A stretch of DNA of 64,000 bases, from NCBI GenBank assembly GCA_964467515.1, contig CAYXQP010000002.1, forward strand, positions 1,275 through 65,274. Direction: 5' to 3'. The notes beneath the pieces were generated by a model. It was not told the origin of the DNA. It was given only the letters and a program-made list of their open reading frames with translations, and made no database searches. This document shows positions 9,745-14,215 of this stretch, in pieces. Each line of letters begins with the position of its first letter. The first letter of the stretch is position 1. Position numbers and translations under genes: made by a program. The DNA comes from an uncultured Eubacteriales bacterium. GTDB taxonomy: Bacteria; Bacillota; Sulfobacillia; DYIH01; JBBIPI01.

Positions 9745-11262
9745 GTGCGGGAGCGGGCGTCCTTCGTCTGCCGGGAGTGCGGGTACGAGGCGCCGCGGTG
9801 GTTGGGGCGCTGCCCCGCCTGCTCGGCGTGGAACTCCCTGGAGGAGGCGCATCCCCCGAGCGGGCGCCGCCCGGGGGGTGGCGCCGCGGCGCCTGCGGAC
9901 CCGGTACCCCTGGGTGACTTCGACGCTCCCGAGGGGCTGCGCGTAGCCTCCGGCATACCCGATCTGGACGCCGTCCTGGGCGGCGGATTGGTACCGGGTT
10001 CCCTCTCTCTCCTGGGGGGCGACCCGGGCGTGGGCAAGTCCACCCTGCTCCTGCAGCTCTGTATCCACCTGGCGGCCGGACCGGCGCCGGCCGAGTCCCG
10101 CTCCGGCCGGGGGGATGCGGGTGCCGACGGCGGCGCCCACGCCGCACCGGGTCCCGTCCTTTACGTGACGGGAGAGGAATCCCCGCGGCAGTTGCGGCTC
10201 CGGGCCGAGCGCCTGCGCCGGGGGCGGCCCTTGCCCGGCAATCTCCTTGTGCTCCCGTCCACCGACCTGGAGGAGATAGAGGCCACCGTGAGCCGCGTGA
10301 GGCCGGCCTTCCTGGCGGTGGACTCGGTGCAGACGGTGGCGGTGCCGGGGGTCGAGGCGTCTCCCGGCAGCGTGGCCCAGGTGCGGGAGGCGGCGGCGCG
10401 TTTCCTCCGCCTGGCCAAGGGCGAGGGGGTTACCATCTGGCTCGTGGGCCACATCAACAAGGAGGGCGTGCTGGCCGGTCCCAAGGTGCTGGAGCACCTG
10501 GTGGACGTGGTCCTCTACCTGGAGGGGGAGCGCCACGGGGCGCACCGGCTGCTGAGGAGCACCAAGAACCGCTTCGGTCCCACCAGCGAGATGGCGGTCC
10601 TGGCCATGGGGGAAGGCGGCCTGGAGGCGGTGGAGAACCCCTCGGCCCTCTTTCTCTCGGAGCGGGCCTCGGAGAGCCCAGGGTCGGCGGTGGCGGTCGC
10701 CTGCGAGGGGGAGCGGCCCTTTCTGGTGGAGGTGCAGGCCCTGGTCTGCCGGGCGGCGGGCGGGGTGCCGCGCCGTGTGGCCCAAGGTGTGGACGGCGGG
10801 CGGGTGGCGGTGATCCTGGCCGTGCTGGAGCGGCGGGCCGGGTTGCCCCTGGGCCAGCACGACGCCTACGTCAAAGTGGCCGGCGGCTTCCGGCTGGAGG
10901 AGCCGGCGGCCGACCTGGCGGTGGCTCTGGCCATGGCCTCGTCCTTCTACGACGTCCCCGTCGATCCGTCCCTGGCCCTGGCCGCCGAGGTGGGCCTGGC
11001 GGGGGAGCTGCGCGCCGTGGGACGGATGGAAACCAGGCTGCGCGAGGCCCGGCGGCTGGGGTTTCGCGCTCTCCTCGCGGCGCCTGCGGAGGCGCGCGGC
11101 CCCGGTCGGCTGCGCCCGGCGCCGGGCAGGAGCGGCGGCCAACGGAGAGCGGCGGGGGTCCTGGGAGCGGCCAACGTGCTGGAGGCGATGCGCCTGGCCC
11201 TCGCCTTGCCCGTGGGCGGTGCCGGCGAGGGGTGCCGCCGCGACAGGCCCGTGCAACGGTAG
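9745..11262 (+). CDS. radA: DNA repair protein RadA/Sms
   Basis: N-terminal C4 zinc finger (CRECGYEAPRWLGRCPAC), Walker A GDPGVGKST and a C-terminal Lon-like domain. Confidence 0.9.
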   Translation: MRERASFVCRECGYEAPRWLGRCPACSAWNSLEEAHPPSGRRPGGGAAAPADPVPLGDFDAPEGLRVASGIPDLDAVLGGGLVPGSLSLLGGDPGVGKSTLLLQLCIHLAAGPAPAESRSGRGDAGADGGAHAAPGPVLYVTGEESPRQLRLRAERLRRGRPLPGNLLVLPSTDLEEIEATVSRVRPAFLAVDSVQTVAVPGVEASPGSVAQVREAAARFLRLAKGEGVTIWLVGHINKEGVLAGPKVLEHLVDVVLYLEGERHGAHRLLRSTKNRFGPTSEMAVLAMGEGGLEAVENPSALFLSERASESPGSAVAVACEGERPFLVEVQALVCRAAGGVPRRVAQGVDGGRVAVILAVLERRAGLPLGQHDAYVKVAGGFRLEEPAADLAVALAMASSFYDVPVDPSLALAAEVGLAGELRAVGRMETRLREARRLGFRALLAAPAEARGPGRLRPAPGRSGGQRRAAGVLGAANVLEAMRLALALPVGGAGEGCRRDRPVQR

Positions 11263-11320
11263 CGCCCGCGCCGCCGAGGGGCGCGCCATCCGGCGCATGC
11301 GGGGGGCTGGTGACGGCGGC

Positions 11321-11716
11321 TCAGGAGATGTTGAAGATACCCAGCGTGGATACCTTTTTGTGCTCCTTGAGGAGGATGTCGAAGAGGTTGAGATCCAGGG
11401 TGTTGCAAAGGGCGGCCAGATAATAGAGCTGGTGTCCCACCTCCTCCTCCAGAGCCTCGGAGCACACGTCGCAGAGTTGGCCCTCCACGTGCGAGGGCAT
11501 GGCGGAACGCAGCTCCTCCAGGGTCATGTCAGGAGGGAAATGAGGCTTGCTGGCCACGATGCGCAGACAGCCGCAGGTGGTTACCGATTTCATGACCGCT
11601 CGGTTGACTCGGGCTGACGCCTCTTGGAGTTTGGAAAGAACATCCAGAATGCTCTTGTGGCGGATGAGGCTCTCGCGGACGGTATTTTGAAAGTCGTCAC
11701 AGAGGAGATCTCGCAC
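11321..11716 (-). CDS. Hypothetical Cys-rich small protein (131 aa), possibly metal-binding, family not recognised
   Basis: GTG start with an AAGGAAGGTGG Shine-Dalgarno 6 nt upstream. CGC and CDVC motifs separated by His-containing spacers. Local GC (~57%) is lower than the surroundings. Convergent with radA. Confidence 0.45.
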   Translation of the reverse strand: MRDLLCDDFQNTVRESLIRHKSILDVLSKLQEASARVNRAVMKSVTTCGCLRIVASKPHFPPDMTLEELRSAMPSHVEGQLCDVCSEALEEEVGHQLYYLAALCNTLDLNLFDILLKEHKKVSTLGIFNIS

Positions 11717-11870
11717 CGCGGGCCACCTTCCTTGGGCGCCATTGTAGCCAGCCTGCGAGGCATTGTCAACGGCTGGACGCGCGCCGGAGGGCGGGTTGCC
11801 GGCCGCTTGCGGCCCCATGGTCTTCCTCGTGCGCGGCGGGACGCGCTGCTGGCAAAAGGTTACAGTCTCC

Positions 11871-11899
11871 TTGAACCGGGGTTGGGAGACCAATATAAT
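11871..11899 (+). promoter_or_regulatory. Near-consensus SigA promoter (TTGAAC, 17 nt, TATAAT) for the yacL-ispDF-cysS unit
   Basis: TTGAAC at 11871-11876 and TATAAT at 11894-11899, 28 nt upstream of the ATG at 11928. Confidence 0.6.
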
Positions 11900-11927
11900 A
11901 GCAGCGAAAGGCGGTGAATGCCAAGAC

Positions 11928-13052
11928 ATGCAACGGGCTATCCGCCTCTTCTTCGCCGTCGTGGGGTTCGTCGGCGGCTTCTACCTGTTCAGCAGCTTGG
12001 ACGGTCTGGTGCGCGAGTTCCTCCTGCCGTCTCTGCCCTCCTGGGGGCGGATGGCTCTCCTGACCACCTCCGTCCTGGCAGGGGGAGTGCTGGGCGCTGT
12101 CCTGGGCCCCCTGGCCCTGCGTCTGGCGTGGCAGGCAGCCACCTGGTGCCAGGCGCGGCTGGCGCGGATTCCTACATTTGATATATTGGCCGGCGCGGCC
12201 GGTCTCATCGTGGGCCTCGTCATAGCCTACCTGTTGCGTCCCGCCCTGCAGCCCCTGCCCCTGGTGGGTTCCTACCTGCCCGGGGCCGTGAGCCTGCTCT
12301 TGGGCTACCTGGGCTGGGTGGTGGCCCTCCACAAGAGGGAGGAGATGGTGTCCCTCCTTTCGGCCCTGTCCAGCGTGGGGAGGGAGCGGCCGACCGAGCG
12401 CGTCGGCGACGACAGGGAGCTGCGGGGGTCCAAGATCCTGGACACGAGCGCCATCATCGACGGGCGCGTGGCCGACGTGGCGCGGGCCGGCTTCCTGGAC
12501 GGGACCCTGGTGGTCCCCGGTTTCGTCCTCGACGAGCTGCGCCGCATCGCTGACTCGGCCGATCCGGTCAAGCGGAGCCGCGGCCGGCGCGGGCTCGACC
12601 TGCTCAAGCGGATGCAGCAGGAGGGGGGGGCGGCGGTCTGCATCCTGGACCGGGAAGGGGAGCGCGGCGACGGCGGCGAGGTGGACGTGCGCCTCGTCCG
12701 CCTGGCCCAGAGGCTGGACGGCAAGATCGTCACCAACGACTTCAACCTCAACAAAGTGGCTTCCCTCCACGGCGTGGGCGTCCTCAACGTCAATGAGCTG
12801 GCCAACGCCCTGCGGCCCGTCTTCCTGCCCGGGGAGGAGATGTCGGTCTACATCCTCCGGGACGGCAAGGAGCCAGGCCAGGGCGTTGGCTACTTGGAGG
12901 ACGGCACCATGATCGTGGTGGAGGGCGGCAAGCGCCATATCGGGGAGACCGTCGAGGTGGAGGTAACCAGCGTCTTGCAGACGGCGGCGGGGCGCATGAT
13001 CTTCGCGCGGCCCAGGGTCGCGGCCGAGGCCAGGCTGGGCGCCAGAGCGTGA
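11928..13052 (+). CDS. PIN/TRAM-domain membrane-associated protein (YacL-like)
   Basis: N-terminal TM helices, a PIN domain (ILDTSAIIDGRV...VTNDFNLNKVA) and a C-terminal TRAM domain. The start was moved to the ATG downstream of the promoter, which avoids overlap with the antisense gene. Confidence 0.8.
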   Translation: MQRAIRLFFAVVGFVGGFYLFSSLDGLVREFLLPSLPSWGRMALLTTSVLAGGVLGAVLGPLALRLAWQAATWCQARLARIPTFDILAGAAGLIVGLVIAYLLRPALQPLPLVGSYLPGAVSLLLGYLGWVVALHKREEMVSLLSALSSVGRERPTERVGDDRELRGSKILDTSAIIDGRVADVARAGFLDGTLVVPGFVLDELRRIADSADPVKRSRGRRGLDLLKRMQQEGGAAVCILDREGERGDGGEVDVRLVRLAQRLDGKIVTNDFNLNKVASLHGVGVLNVNELANALRPVFLPGEEMSVYILRDGKEPGQGVGYLEDGTMIVVEGGKRHIGETVEVEVTSVLQTAAGRMIFARPRVAAEARLGARA

Positions 13053-14215
13053 GCTGCGCCGCCATCCTGGCCGCGGCCGGACGGGCGAGGCGCCTAGGGC
13101 TGGATCTCAACAAGGCTCTGCTCCCTCTGGGAGGAGAGCCTGTTTTGGTGCATGCCCTCCGCCCCCTGGCGGAGGCCCCTTCCATAGAGGCCATCGTGGT
13201 GGTGGCCAGGTCCGGCGAGGAGGAGAGGTGCCGGCTCCTGGCGGAGCGGTACGGCGGCGGCAAGGTCCTGGACGTGGTCACGGGCGGCGACGAGCGGCAG
13301 GAGTCGGTGGCCCGCGGGCTGGCGGCCGTCCCGGAAGCCTTCGAGCTGGTGGCCGTCCACGACGCGGCGCGGCCCTTCGTCACCGCCCATCTGGTGGAGG
13401 AGACGGTGGCGGCGGCTCGCCGCTGGGGGGCGGCGTGCCTGGCCCTTCCGGCCCGCGATACCGTCAAACTGGCGGACGACGAGGGGTTCGTGGCGGCCAC
13501 GCCCCCGCGGGAACGGATCTGGCTGGCCCAGACCCCCCAGGTGTTCCGCCGTTCCCTGCTGGTCAGGGCCTTCCGGGCGGCCGCCGAGGCCGGGCGGCGC
13601 GGCACCGACGAGGCTTCCCTGGTGGAGGCCCTGGGAGGGCGGGTGCGGCTCGTGGCGGGTTCCCCGCTCAACATCAAGATCACCGAGCCGGCGGATCTCC
13701 GCCTGGCGGAGGGCCTTGTGGCCGGGGTGAGCGGCGGCGTGCGGGTGGGGTTCGGGTACGACGTGCACCCCCTGGCCGACGGACGCCCCCTGGTTCTGGG
13801 CGGGGTGCGGATTCCCTGGGGAAGGGGGCTTCTCGGCAACACGGATGCCGACGTGGCGTGCCACGCCCTCATGGACGCCCTCCTGGGCGCGGCGGGGTTG
13901 GGAGACATCGGAGGGTTTTTCCCGCCCGACGCCGAAGAGTTCCGGGACGCTGAGAGCCTGGCCCTGCTGCGGCGCGTGGCGGCGGAGCTGCGGGGGAGGG
14001 GTTGGCGGGTGAGCAACGCCGACGTGACCATCCTGGCCGAGGAGCCGCGCCTGGCTCCCCTGCTAACGGAGATGGCCCGCCTCCTGGGCGAGGCGGTGGC
14101 GGCGCCGGGCCGGGTCAACGTCAAGGCGGCGCGCGGCGAGGGGTTGGGCTTCGTGGGCAGGGGAGAGGGCATGGCGGCCCACGCCGTCGTCCTCATCCGG
14201 GCGGGGGTGGACTGA
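13049..14215 (+). CDS. ispDF: Bifunctional IspD/IspF (MEP cytidylyltransferase fused to MEcPP synthase)
   Basis: N-terminal IspD (AAILAAAGRARRLG...) and C-terminal IspF (GFGYDVHPL...GNTDADVACHALMDALLGAAGLGDIG) in one 388-aa ORF. GTGA overlap with the upstream gene. Confidence 0.85.
   Translation: MSCAAILAAAGRARRLGLDLNKALLPLGGEPVLVHALRPLAEAPSIEAIVVVARSGEEERCRLLAERYGGGKVLDVVTGGDERQESVARGLAAVPEAFELVAVHDAARPFVTAHLVEETVAAARRWGAACLALPARDTVKLADDEGFVAATPPRERIWLAQTPQVFRRSLLVRAFRAAAEAGRRGTDEASLVEALGGRVRLVAGSPLNIKITEPADLRLAEGLVAGVSGGVRVGFGYDVHPLADGRPLVLGGVRIPWGRGLLGNTDADVACHALMDALLGAAGLGDIGGFFPPDAEEFRDAESLALLRRVAAELRGRGWRVSNADVTILAEEPRLAPLLTEMARLLGEAVAAPGRVNVKAARGEGLGFVGRGEGMAAHAVVLIRAGVD

What the first reader, a model, noticed from the sequence alone, without database searches (positions are those of the whole stretch)
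11263..11930. disA is absent between radA and yacL; a convergent 131-aa Cys-rich gene and a consensus promoter occupy the gap
In most Firmicutes radA is followed by disA (c-di-AMP synthase, DNA integrity scanning) and then the PIN/TRAM gene. Here only 666 bp separate radA from the yacL-like gene, and they hold a minus-strand ORF instead. That ORF has a strong Shine-Dalgarno (AAGGAAGGTGG-6-GTG), paired CGC/CDVC motifs with interspersed His, and local GC of about 57% against about 70% for the neighbourhood. A TTGAAC-17-TATAAT promoter then restarts transcription into yacL-ispDF-cysS. I could not place the small protein in any family I know.
Basis: partly seen in the sequence, partly recalled or inferred. 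Interest (0 to 1): 0.6.

Follow-up and report, generated by a model that had tools for sequence, protein, structure and literature searches.

The report
Conserved Cys4 MazG-fold gene beside radA
The small minus-strand ORF is a real, strongly conserved but uncharacterised gene that holds this same slot in hundreds of Clostridia-type bacteria, with or without disA, so it does not replace disA; it encodes a MazG-like helical protein built around four cysteines and usually sits behind a perfect consensus promoter.

Summary
radA ends at 11262 and the PIN/TRAM gene starts at 11928. A 131-aa minus-strand ORF (11716..11321, GTG start) follows AAGGAAGGTGG plus 6 nt and carries CGC and CDVC motifs. Its GC is 57% against 70% for the window, and TTGAAC-17-TATAAT lies at 11871-11899.

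The ORF ("X131") is a genuine gene: dN/dS is 0.05 against its nearest relative, there are 470 homologues, and at least 486 species carry it. In 80 species loci it keeps the same slot, convergent with clpC-radA-(disA) and head-to-head with (carD)-PIN/TRAM-ispDF. disA is the 3' neighbour in 51 loci and is missing in 20, so X131 coexists with disA and the disA-less layout is a recurrent variant.

No Pfam or NCBIfam model matches. The public label "DUF1573" rests on a sub-threshold 24-residue hit. The AlphaFold model (pLDDT 88) resembles MazG-like all-alpha NTP pyrophosphohydrolases, but the catalytic Asp is lost. Only C48-G49-C50 is invariant across the family, with C82 and C85 nearly so.

X131 has its own promoter (TTGACA-17-TACAAT). 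In 56 of 76 species that promoter is a perfect 12/12 consensus. Function is unproven. My best guess is a well-expressed metal-binding, non-catalytic MazG-fold protein.

The parts
9745..11262 (+). radA (DNA repair protein RadA/Sms), last gene of the clpC-radA unit; it is convergent with X131.
   Evidence: TIGR00416 E=1.6e-147; Pfam Zn_ribbon_LapB, AAA_25 and Lon_C.
11263..11320 (.). 58-bp convergent spacer between the radA stop and the X131 stop (86% GC). No recognisable intrinsic terminator.
   Evidence: No terminator-like site. Folding is no better than shuffled sequence, z = +1.4 and +0.7. Only imperfect GC-rich palindromes.
11321..11716 (-). X131: a 131-aa protein with a GTG start, a MazG-like helical core, and C48-G-C50 plus C82-x-x-C85 (a presumed Cys4 metal site).
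   Evidence: 470 homologues, nearly all 131-133 aa. dN/dS 0.053 against the 94%-identical relative. AF2 pLDDT 88.4. The Foldseek top 50 are all MazG-like NTP-PPases.
11723..11733 (-). Shine-Dalgarno AAGGAAGGTGG, 6 nt before the GTG start.
   Evidence: Read directly from the sequence. Identical in the nearest relative L088.
11741..11769 (-). X131's own sigma-A-type promoter, TTGACA-17-TACAAT (11 of 12). The -10 hexamer ends 24 nt before the GTG. It lies inside the longer 202-aa ATG ORF, which argues against that longer reading.
   Evidence: 0.0 sites expected in shuffles. Conserved base for base in L088 while sequence further upstream diverges. The equivalent promoter is a perfect 12/12 in 56 of 76 species.
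11871..11899 (+). Divergent promoter TTGAAC-17-TATAAT for PIN/TRAM-ispDF-cysS.
   Evidence: In relatives the divergent carD or PIN/TRAM promoter scores at least 11 of 12 in 32 of 76 species.
11928..13052 (+). yacL-like membrane PIN/TRAM protein (374 aa), head-to-head with X131.
   Evidence: Pfam PIN 4.5e-7 and TRAM 2e-9. The homologue in L088 is 376 aa.
13049..14215 (+). Fused ispD-ispF gene. Its start overlaps the PIN/TRAM stop by 4 bp, which suggests co-transcription.
   Evidence: Pfam IspD 1e-61 and YgbB 1.3e-54.

Best explanation
The interval holds a genuine, vertically inherited, monocistronic gene, which I call X131.

Shown:
- X131 is transcribed from its own near-consensus sigma-A promoter toward the 3' end of radA.
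- It belongs to a compact, stand-alone, about 131-aa family confined to Clostridia-type Bacillota.
- Family members nearly always lie convergent with clpC-radA-(disA) and head-to-head with (carD)-PIN/TRAM-ispD/F-cysS. X131 is therefore the normal resident of this slot, not a substitute for disA.
- The window's lineage simply lacks both disA and carD at this site.

Inferred:
- The protein has a MazG-like all-alpha core.
- A roughly 30-residue hairpin is inserted between the two helices that carry the catalytic motifs in MazG enzymes.
- C48-G-C50 ends helix 2 and C82-x-x-C85 starts helix 4, so the four cysteines flank this insertion. They most likely bind one metal ion: zinc, or iron or an Fe-S cluster in anaerobes.
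- The canonical MazG acidic metal ligands are largely gone, and across the whole family the cysteines are the most conserved residues.
- I therefore think X131 is not a classical NTP pyrophosphohydrolase. I think it is a well-expressed metal-dependent binding or sensing protein that uses the former nucleotide pocket and/or the Cys4 centre.
- Its persistent pairing with carD and radA suggests a nucleic-acid or transcription-related partner. That link is inferred only.
For: The gene is real.
- 470 homologues at E<=0.01, nearly all 131-133 aa and starting at the same residue.
- 175 clusters at 50% identity among 1.84 billion representatives.
- At least 486 GTDB species.
- dN/dS is 0.053, with 7, 0 and 38 changes at codon positions 1, 2 and 3.

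The slot is conserved.
- 3' neighbour in 73 species loci: disA 51, radA 17, clpC 3.
- 5' neighbour in 72 species loci: carD 42, PIN/TRAM 21.
- The nearest relative (94% identity) has the same radA-X131-PIN/TRAM-ispDF-cysS order.
- Members only 22-30% identical still sit head-to-head with carD or PIN/TRAM.

Expression signals.
- TTGACA-17-TACAAT at 11769..11741 plus a strong Shine-Dalgarno.
- A perfect 12/12 promoter in 56 of 76 species, against 0 of 343 control windows.
- Terminators follow the gene in low-GC relatives.

Fold.
- AF2 pLDDT 88.4 and pTM 0.76.
- All 50 best PDB matches are MazG-like enzymes: iMazG, DCTPP1/RS21-C6, YpjD, AF1178 and DR2231, with TM 0.39-0.71.
- Profile against PDB: YpjD at E=0.044.
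- hhalign against the YpjD family: E=1.1e-5 over helix 87-113.
- PHROG 'MazG-like pyrophosphatase' at E=2.7e-5 for the Mahella homologue.

Degenerate active site and Cys hallmark.
- The YpjD catalytic D69 aligns with a variable H/R/N/K position.
- In 53 diverse members only C48-G49-C50 is invariant. C82 and C85 are at least 90% conserved.
Against: - No experiment bears on expression, metal content or activity.
- Foldseek E-values are weak (0.02-0.3), and only one helix aligns at the sequence level.
- E32, E90 and E92 remain fairly well conserved among close members, so a modified catalytic site is not excluded.
- The window has no recognisable terminator after X131.
- X131's GC3 of 0.74 is odd for a highly expressed gene in this genome; EF-Tu has 0.95.
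- One divergent member lies in a different, nucleoside-metabolism context.
Confidence: 0.6

Rival explanations
1. X131 is an active MazG-type house-cleaning (d)NTP pyrophosphohydrolase. The Cys4 site is only a structural zinc staple.
For: MazG-like fold. The E-x-E-x-G helix aligns with the YpjD EEEIGD motif. PHROG MazG-like hits. Some database records call homologues 'nucleoside triphosphate pyrophosphohydrolase family'. One divergent member follows a nucleoside hydrolase and a PfkB kinase on the same strand.
Against: The Asp of the E-x-x-D motif is never kept. No E-x-x-E pair is conserved in helix 2. E92 itself varies in divergent members. Pfam MazG is never reached at its cut-off; the best of 42 members is E=0.02.
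Confidence: 0.15
2. X131 is a redox or Fe-S sensor. The CGC/CxxC cluster binds an Fe-S cluster or forms a thiol-disulfide switch, and this controls an interaction with CarD/RNA polymerase or with a DNA-repair protein.
For: The cysteines are the most conserved feature of the family. The hosts are mostly anaerobes. Pairing with carD persists in either orientation and in members only 22-26% identical.
Against: No selenocysteine form was found: 0 contigs with TGA at codon 48 against at least 120 with TGY. The motif does not match known Fe-S or ZAS signatures by inspection. The window's lineage and 21 other species have no carD next to the gene.
Confidence: 0.15
3. X131 functionally replaces or partners DisA, for example as a c-di-AMP-related protein.
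For: X131 lies where disA would be in the window. It is the immediate neighbour of disA in 51 of 73 species.
Against: X131 coexists with disA in about 70% of species and persists in about 27% without it. It is always on the opposite strand. It has no DAC domain. Divergent members sit next to radC, or next to radA alone.
Confidence: 0.03
4. The ORF is a spurious antisense reading frame in an AT-richer promoter region.
For: Long chance ORFs are common in this 70% GC DNA. The longest ORF here, 202 aa from an ATG, is indeed an artefact.
Against: Hundreds of homologues of fixed length. dN/dS of 0.053. Own promoter and Shine-Dalgarno. A confident fold prediction.
Confidence: 0.005
5. X131 is the antitoxin or partner of the neighbouring PIN-domain protein, in a VapBC-like pair.
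For: It is adjacent to a PIN/TRAM gene in the window and in 21 species.
Against: The two genes are divergent, not co-transcribed. carD intervenes in most species. The PIN/TRAM gene is the housekeeping membrane YacL type and heads the ispDF-cysS operon. PADLOC gives no hit.
Confidence: 0.02

Closest known systems
YpjD of Bacillus subtilis (PDB 2GTA) and other small MazG-like all-alpha NTP pyrophosphohydrolases (iMazG 2Q5Z, DCTPP1/RS21-C6, AF1178, DR2231)
   Same: Similar size and helical-bundle fold. The helix E-x-E-x-G-x-x-L-F/Y-Y-L-a-x-L-x-N aligns with the YpjD sequence EEEIGDVLFVLVCLAN.
   Different: - The catalytic Asp of E-x-x-D is replaced by a variable residue.
- There is no conserved E-x-x-E in the partner helix.
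- A roughly 30-residue hairpin flanked by CGC and CxxC is inserted between the motif helices.
- Pfam MazG is not reached.
- X131 is not shown to hydrolyse anything.
DUF1573 (Pfam PF07610), the label that many public records give to homologues
   Same: A short stretch around the motif T-x-C-G-C, about 24 residues.
   Different: Scores are 13-15.5 bits against a 26.1-bit cut-off, covering profile positions 34-59 of 98. Only 14 of 42 members match even at E<=10. X131 is predicted to be helical throughout its core. The label looks like motif-level over-annotation.
Zinc-dependent anti-sigma (ZAS) domains and other small Cys-rich helical sensors
   Same: Small helical proteins with a His and a CxxC motif at the start of a helix.
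   Different: X131 has H-x5-C-x2-C plus CGC, not H-x3-C-x2-C. No sigma-factor gene is adjacent. No fold match appeared among the top 50. This resemblance comes from my memory of the family and was tested only by inspection.
The canonical Firmicute ctsR-mcsAB-clpC-radA-disA / yacL-ispD-ispF-cysS neighbourhood
   Same: The window keeps clpC-radA and PIN/TRAM-ispDF-cysS in the usual order and orientation.
   Different: disA and carD are absent here. The Clostridia-specific X131 gene sits between the two units on the opposite strand.

Membership tests
All-alpha NTP pyrophosphohydrolase (MazG-like) superfamily | Helical-bundle fold shared with MazG, iMazG, DCTPP1 and YpjD. | tested here: met
All-alpha NTP pyrophosphohydrolase (MazG-like) superfamily | Significant sequence-profile match to a curated MazG model. 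| tested here: inconclusive
   Pfam MazG PF03819 matches only 2 of 42 members, best E=0.02, below the cut-off. The window protein gives no hit. PHROG 'MazG-like pyrophosphatase' gives E=2.7e-5 and 2.1e-4 for two homologues but nothing for the window protein. hhalign against the YpjD family gives E=1.1e-5 over 27 columns.
All-alpha NTP pyrophosphohydrolase (MazG-like) superfamily | Second metal-binding motif E-x-x-D. | tested here: not met
   E92 aligns with YpjD E66. YpjD D69, invariant in 17 YpjD homologues, aligns with position 95, which is H, R, N, K, S or Q. E92 itself varies in divergent members.
All-alpha NTP pyrophosphohydrolase (MazG-like) superfamily | First metal-binding motif E-x-x-E in the partner helix. 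| tested here: inconclusive
   No profile alignment covers helix 2. By inspection the family consensus K-x-Q-E-S-x-A-R has only E32 and no E-x-x-E pair.
All-alpha NTP pyrophosphohydrolase (MazG-like) superfamily | Mg-dependent hydrolysis of (d)NTP to (d)NMP plus PPi. | not testable with these tools
   Needs an enzyme assay.
DUF1573 (PF07610) | Score at or above the Pfam gathering threshold across the domain. | tested here: not met
   Best score is 15.5 bits against a cut-off of 26.1. The match covers residues 42-67 only. The window protein shows no DUF1573 match at E<=10.
DisA / DAC-domain diadenylate cyclase | DAC domain (PF02457), with the DisA linker and HhH. | tested here: not met
   X131 has no DAC match. 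tblastn with three DisA proteins finds nothing in the window better than E=0.2.
VapB-type antitoxin of a PIN toxin | Co-transcribed immediately upstream of the PIN gene. | tested here: not met
   X131 is divergent from the PIN/TRAM gene here, and carD intervenes in 42 of 72 species.
Selenoprotein form of a 'UGC' motif protein (listed under the DUF1573 label in PMC9312934 and PMC13188914) | In-frame TGA at the first Cys of the CGC motif. | tested here: not met
   0 metagenome contigs carry TGA at codon 48.

The most novel reading that the evidence does not exclude
X131 could be an abundant Cys4-metal (zinc or Fe-S) sensor on a catalytically dead MazG scaffold that works with CarD/RNA polymerase or with RadA/DisA. 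On this reading, its almost universally perfect TTGACA-18-TATAAT promoter, back-to-back with the carD promoter, is part of a conserved regulatory circuit in Clostridia. One possibility is a promoter whose output reports CarD or sigma-A holoenzyme activity.
Probability: 0.1. Interest if true: 0.7.

Novelty: new variant of a known kind. Interest (0 to 1): 0.42.

Why it matters
The missing disA is ordinary: about a quarter of related species lack it at this site. The small gene is the more interesting part.
- It is conserved in at least 486 species, including Clostridium sensu stricto, Thermoanaerobacterium, Thermincola, Symbiobacterium and syntrophs.
- It has no curated family model and carries a misleading 'DUF1573' label in public records. 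A public (NCBI) record on a 66,029-bp contig that also carries this window's ClpC and EF-Tu calls it 41 residues too short.
- It keeps one chromosomal position between two ancient housekeeping operons.
- In three quarters of species it is driven by a perfect consensus promoter, which is rare for natural genes.

Taken together, these features suggest an important and probably abundant protein that nobody has studied. Metal analysis, nucleotide binding, pull-downs and knock-down in a tractable Clostridium or Thermoanaerobacterium would all be feasible.

Tried and rejected
- Pfam, NCBIfam and PADLOC scans of the window protein gave nothing. The PHROG scan gave nothing for the window protein, only MazG-like hits for two homologues.
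- The 202-aa ATG reading (11929..11321) is rejected. Homologues are 131 aa, and X131's own promoter lies inside the extension.
- Rfam scan of 11100-12100 at E<=1 found no RNA family.
- Terminator search in the radA/X131 spacer found none, and the folds are no better than shuffled sequence.
- Selenocysteine lead from two reviews that list a 'DUF1573' UGC selenoprotein: no TGA form of this family turned up in metagenomes.
- A regex search of the fetched loci for a MazG gene to use as a comparison set found none. The real YpjD sequence was recovered from the PDB instead.
- A deeper YpjD alignment did not extend the profile alignment beyond one helix.
- Literature searches (DUF1573; disA+carD+ispD+radA; the strong Thermoanaerobacterium and C. 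thermocellum promoters Tsac_0068 and Clo1313_2638) found nothing about this gene.
- The source genome could not be identified. Exact look-ups show an unnamed NCBI contig of 66,029 bp, but the contig itself could not be fetched.
- Truncated hits ending near residue 47 look like frameshifted fragments, not Sec-terminated genes.
- P0221 (1175 aa, 13 matched stretches) is a tandem-repeat artefact.
Full report
**1. What is in the sequence**

- radA (TIGR00416, E=1.6e-147) ends at 11262.
- The PIN/TRAM yacL-like gene (Pfam PIN and TRAM) is best started at ATG 11928. This gives 374 aa, against 376 aa in the nearest relative.
- ispDF follows with a 4-bp overlap.
- The 665-bp interval contains a minus-strand ORF. 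From GTG 11716 to the stop at 11321 it encodes 131 aa.
- It is preceded by AAGGAAGGTGG (11733..11723) and a 6-nt spacer.
- The protein carries C48-G-C50 and C82-D-V-C85.
- Its GC content is 57.1% against 69.9% for the window.
- TTGAAC-17-TATAAT is at 11871..11899 on the plus strand.

A long ORF is not evidence in itself, because this 70% GC DNA has long ORFs in all six frames.

**2. The ORF is a real gene**

I call the ORF X131.
- A search of 5.8 billion proteins found 470 homologues at E<=0.01. Nearly all are 131-133 aa, 56-94% identical, and begin at the same residue.
- An exhaustive HMMER search of 1.84 billion cluster representatives found only 175 clusters. Almost all are stand-alone proteins of this size, and none has an informative fusion.
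- At least 486 GTDB species representatives encode it.
- Against the 94%-identical relative there are 7, 0 and 38 differences at codon positions 1, 2 and 3, and dN/dS is 0.053.
- The 202-aa ATG version is an artefact. Homologues lack the extension, and X131's promoter lies inside it.

**3. Its place in the chromosome**

I annotated 80 species loci by tblastn with ClpC, RadA, DisA, CarD, PIN/TRAM and IspDF. X131 is always on the strand opposite its neighbours.
- On its 3' side the convergent neighbour is disA in 51 of 73 loci, radA in 17 and clpC in 3. Median gaps are 50-73 bp, with some of only a few bp.
- On its 5' side it is head-to-head with carD in 32 of 72 loci and with PIN/TRAM in 21. 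In 10 loci an inverted carD lies on X131's own strand.

Examples are consistent with this.
- Formimonas has clpC-radA-disA, then X131, then carD-PIN/TRAM-ispD-ispF.
- Mahella has clpC-radA directly abutting X131.
- Family members only 22-30% identical to the window protein still sit head-to-head with carD or PIN/TRAM. Their convergent partners are radA, radC or an uncharacterised gene.
- One divergent member lies elsewhere, after a nucleoside hydrolase and a PfkB kinase.

X131 is therefore a fixed resident of the boundary between two ancient operons. It coexists with disA in about 70% of species.

The window's arrangement is radA-X131-PIN/TRAM with neither disA nor carD. It is shared with the nearest relative and is one recurrent variant. 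Neither DisA nor CarD is encoded anywhere in the 64-kb window. Whether they exist elsewhere in the genome could not be tested.

**4. Expression signals**

X131 has its own promoter, TTGACA-17-TACAAT at 11769..11741 (11 of 12). The -10 hexamer ends 24 nt before the GTG. No such site is expected in shuffles of the region. In the nearest relative the promoter and Shine-Dalgarno are conserved base for base while sequence further upstream diverges.

Across the family the promoter is unusually well conserved.
- 56 of 76 species loci have a perfect 12/12 TTGACA-N-TATAAT within 200 nt upstream of the start codon. 52 of these have an 18-nt spacer whose sequence is not conserved.
- None of 343 random control windows from the same loci reaches 12/12.
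- In 1.96 Mb of fetched loci there are 205 perfect sites. 146 lie upstream of X131 and 28 are the divergent carD or PIN/TRAM promoter. Only 31 lie anywhere else.
- Low-GC relatives have intrinsic terminators just after X131, so the gene is monocistronic.

In the window, no terminator is recognisable in the 58-bp spacer. No Rfam family matches the interval.

**5. What the protein is**

- Pfam and NCBIfam give no hit.
- The label 'DUF1573 domain-containing protein' on many public homologues comes from a sub-threshold match: 13-15.5 bits against a 26.1-bit cut-off. The match covers about 24 residues around the CGC motif.
- AlphaFold2 with a 42-sequence alignment gives a confident model (pLDDT 88.4, pTM 0.76). 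It has helices at 2-16, 23-48, 66-72, 83-106 and 111-125, and two short strands at 51-53 and 77-79.
- All 50 best Foldseek matches in the PDB are MazG-like all-alpha NTP pyrophosphohydrolases: iMazG, DCTPP1/RS21-C6, YpjD, AF1178 and DR2231. TM-scores are 0.39-0.71, although E-values are weak at 0.02-0.3.
- Sequence evidence agrees. The family profile finds YpjD at E=0.044. hhalign against a YpjD-family alignment gives E=1.1e-5 over helix 87-113. PHROG 'MazG-like pyrophosphatase' matches two homologues at E=2.7e-5 and 2.1e-4.

The catalytic signature, however, is degraded.
- The YpjD motif E-E-I-G-D aligns with x-E92-V-G94-x95.
- The Asp, invariant in YpjD homologues, is H, R, N, K, S or Q in X131.
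- No E-x-x-E pair is conserved in helix 2.
- In a set of 53 members down to 22% identity, only C48-G49-C50 is invariant. Q10, D25, C82, C85, G94, Y99 and L125 are at least 90% conserved.

CGC ends helix 2 and precedes strand 51-53. CxxC follows strand 77-79 and opens helix 4. If the two strands pair, the four cysteines flank the roughly 30-residue insertion that replaces the short loop between the two MazG motif helices. They would then be placed to bind one metal ion.

**6. How it most likely works**

Shown: X131 is a conserved, independently transcribed gene for a small soluble protein with a MazG-like fold and four hallmark cysteines.

Inferred: the cysteines form a Cys4 metal site. The protein is well expressed, judging from the promoter and Shine-Dalgarno. 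It has probably lost classical NTP pyrophosphohydrolase chemistry and acts by binding a ligand or partner.

Among close members a polar stripe lies on one face of helix 2: D25, K29, E32, R36, R39, K43 and T46, spaced i+3 or i+4. This suggests that the former nucleotide pocket survives as an anion-binding surface.

The persistent pairing with carD, in either orientation, and with radA hints at a transcription-related or DNA-related partner. No data test this.

Rival readings:
- An active MazG enzyme with a structural zinc.
- A redox or Fe-S sensor.
- A DisA substitute, which the co-occurrence data largely exclude.
- A PIN antitoxin, which the gene orientation argues against.
- A spurious ORF, which is refuted.

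A search for a selenocysteine form was negative: 0 contigs with TGA at codon 48 against at least 120 with TGY. That gives no support for a catalytic redox cysteine.

**7. Comparison with what is known, and novelty**

The fold places X131 in the MazG-like superfamily, but two defining catalytic features are not met or are unclear. It should not be filed as a MazG enzyme or as DUF1573.

It is best described as a new variant of a known kind: a Cys4-stapled, probably non-catalytic MazG-fold protein specific to Clostridia-type Bacillota. I found no paper on it.

**8. Verdict**

The disA absence is ordinary. The small gene is an unstudied, widely conserved family with unusual promoter and synteny conservation. 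I score interest as moderate (0.42).

Noticed in passing
window 11741-11769 (-); loci L008-L087, about 30-90 nt upstream of the X131 start: The X131 promoter is a perfect 12/12 TTGACA-N18-TATAAT in 56 of 76 species (52 of them with the 18-nt spacer), and the spacer sequence is not conserved. None of 343 control windows reaches 12/12. Only 31 of 205 perfect sites in 1.96 Mb of loci lie away from this intergenic region. The window has the 11/12, 17-nt-spacer form.
   Followed up: yes
window 11321-11593 (-): An NCBI record on a 66,029-bp contig calls this gene as 90 aa from the internal ATG at M42 (P0124). The same contig also carries this window's ClpC and EF-Tu. That call drops helix 1 and most of helix 2, so it is an N-terminally truncated annotation.
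   Followed up: partly
window 11321-11716 (-): X131 has GC3 of 0.74, while every other gene checked has 0.89-0.96; these include EF-Tu, the putative rpoB and rpoC, clpC and radA. A/T-ending codons are concentrated in the first 45 codons. This is unexplained, because the conserved synteny argues against recent horizontal transfer.
   Followed up: partly
window 11717-11927, and the whole window: carD, which lies between X131 and PIN/TRAM in most relatives, is also missing from this slot and from the 64-kb window.
   Followed up: partly
L018 7861-7890 (-), L038 7859-7888 (-), L046 7848-7877: In relatives the divergent carD or PIN/TRAM promoter is also a near-perfect TTGACA-18-TATAAT. It stands back-to-back with the X131 promoter, with only about 25-50 bp between the two -35 boxes.
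   Followed up: partly
L022, L044, L052, L064, L066, L069, L071, L075, L076, L078, L082: In Fermentithermobacillaceae-like genomes carD is inverted and lies about 200 bp upstream of X131 on the same strand, while PIN/TRAM stays on the other strand. All of these loci lack disA.
   Followed up: no
L211 1082-3313: One divergent family member (P0204, 29% identity) is not in the usual slot. It follows an inosine-uridine nucleoside hydrolase and a PfkB-family kinase on the same strand.
   Followed up: no
L212 6373-6381; L004 8402-8406: In some genomes X131 and radA overlap at their 3' ends by 9 bp or are only a few bp apart. Convergent transcripts must then overlap.
   Followed up: no
window 11895-11924 (-): A second minus-strand promoter-like site, TTGGCA-18-TATTAT with an extended-10 TG, overlaps the plus-strand -10 box. 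It may simply be a by-product of the AT-rich TATAAT region.
   Followed up: no
L004 2949-7346: In Mahella australiensis the 5' side of X131 carries a group II intron reverse transcriptase, an rve-type transposase and an AAA ATPase instead of carD-PIN/TRAM.
   Followed up: no
L088 10323-10583: The nearest relative has an 86-aa RHH_1 gene on the opposite strand between clpC and radA. The window has only a 48-bp gap there.
   Followed up: no
L006 8548-9093 (+): In Formimonas and two related loci, a 181-aa ORF with no Pfam hit is called downstream of X131. It overlaps the 3' end of disA on the opposite strand.
   Followed up: no
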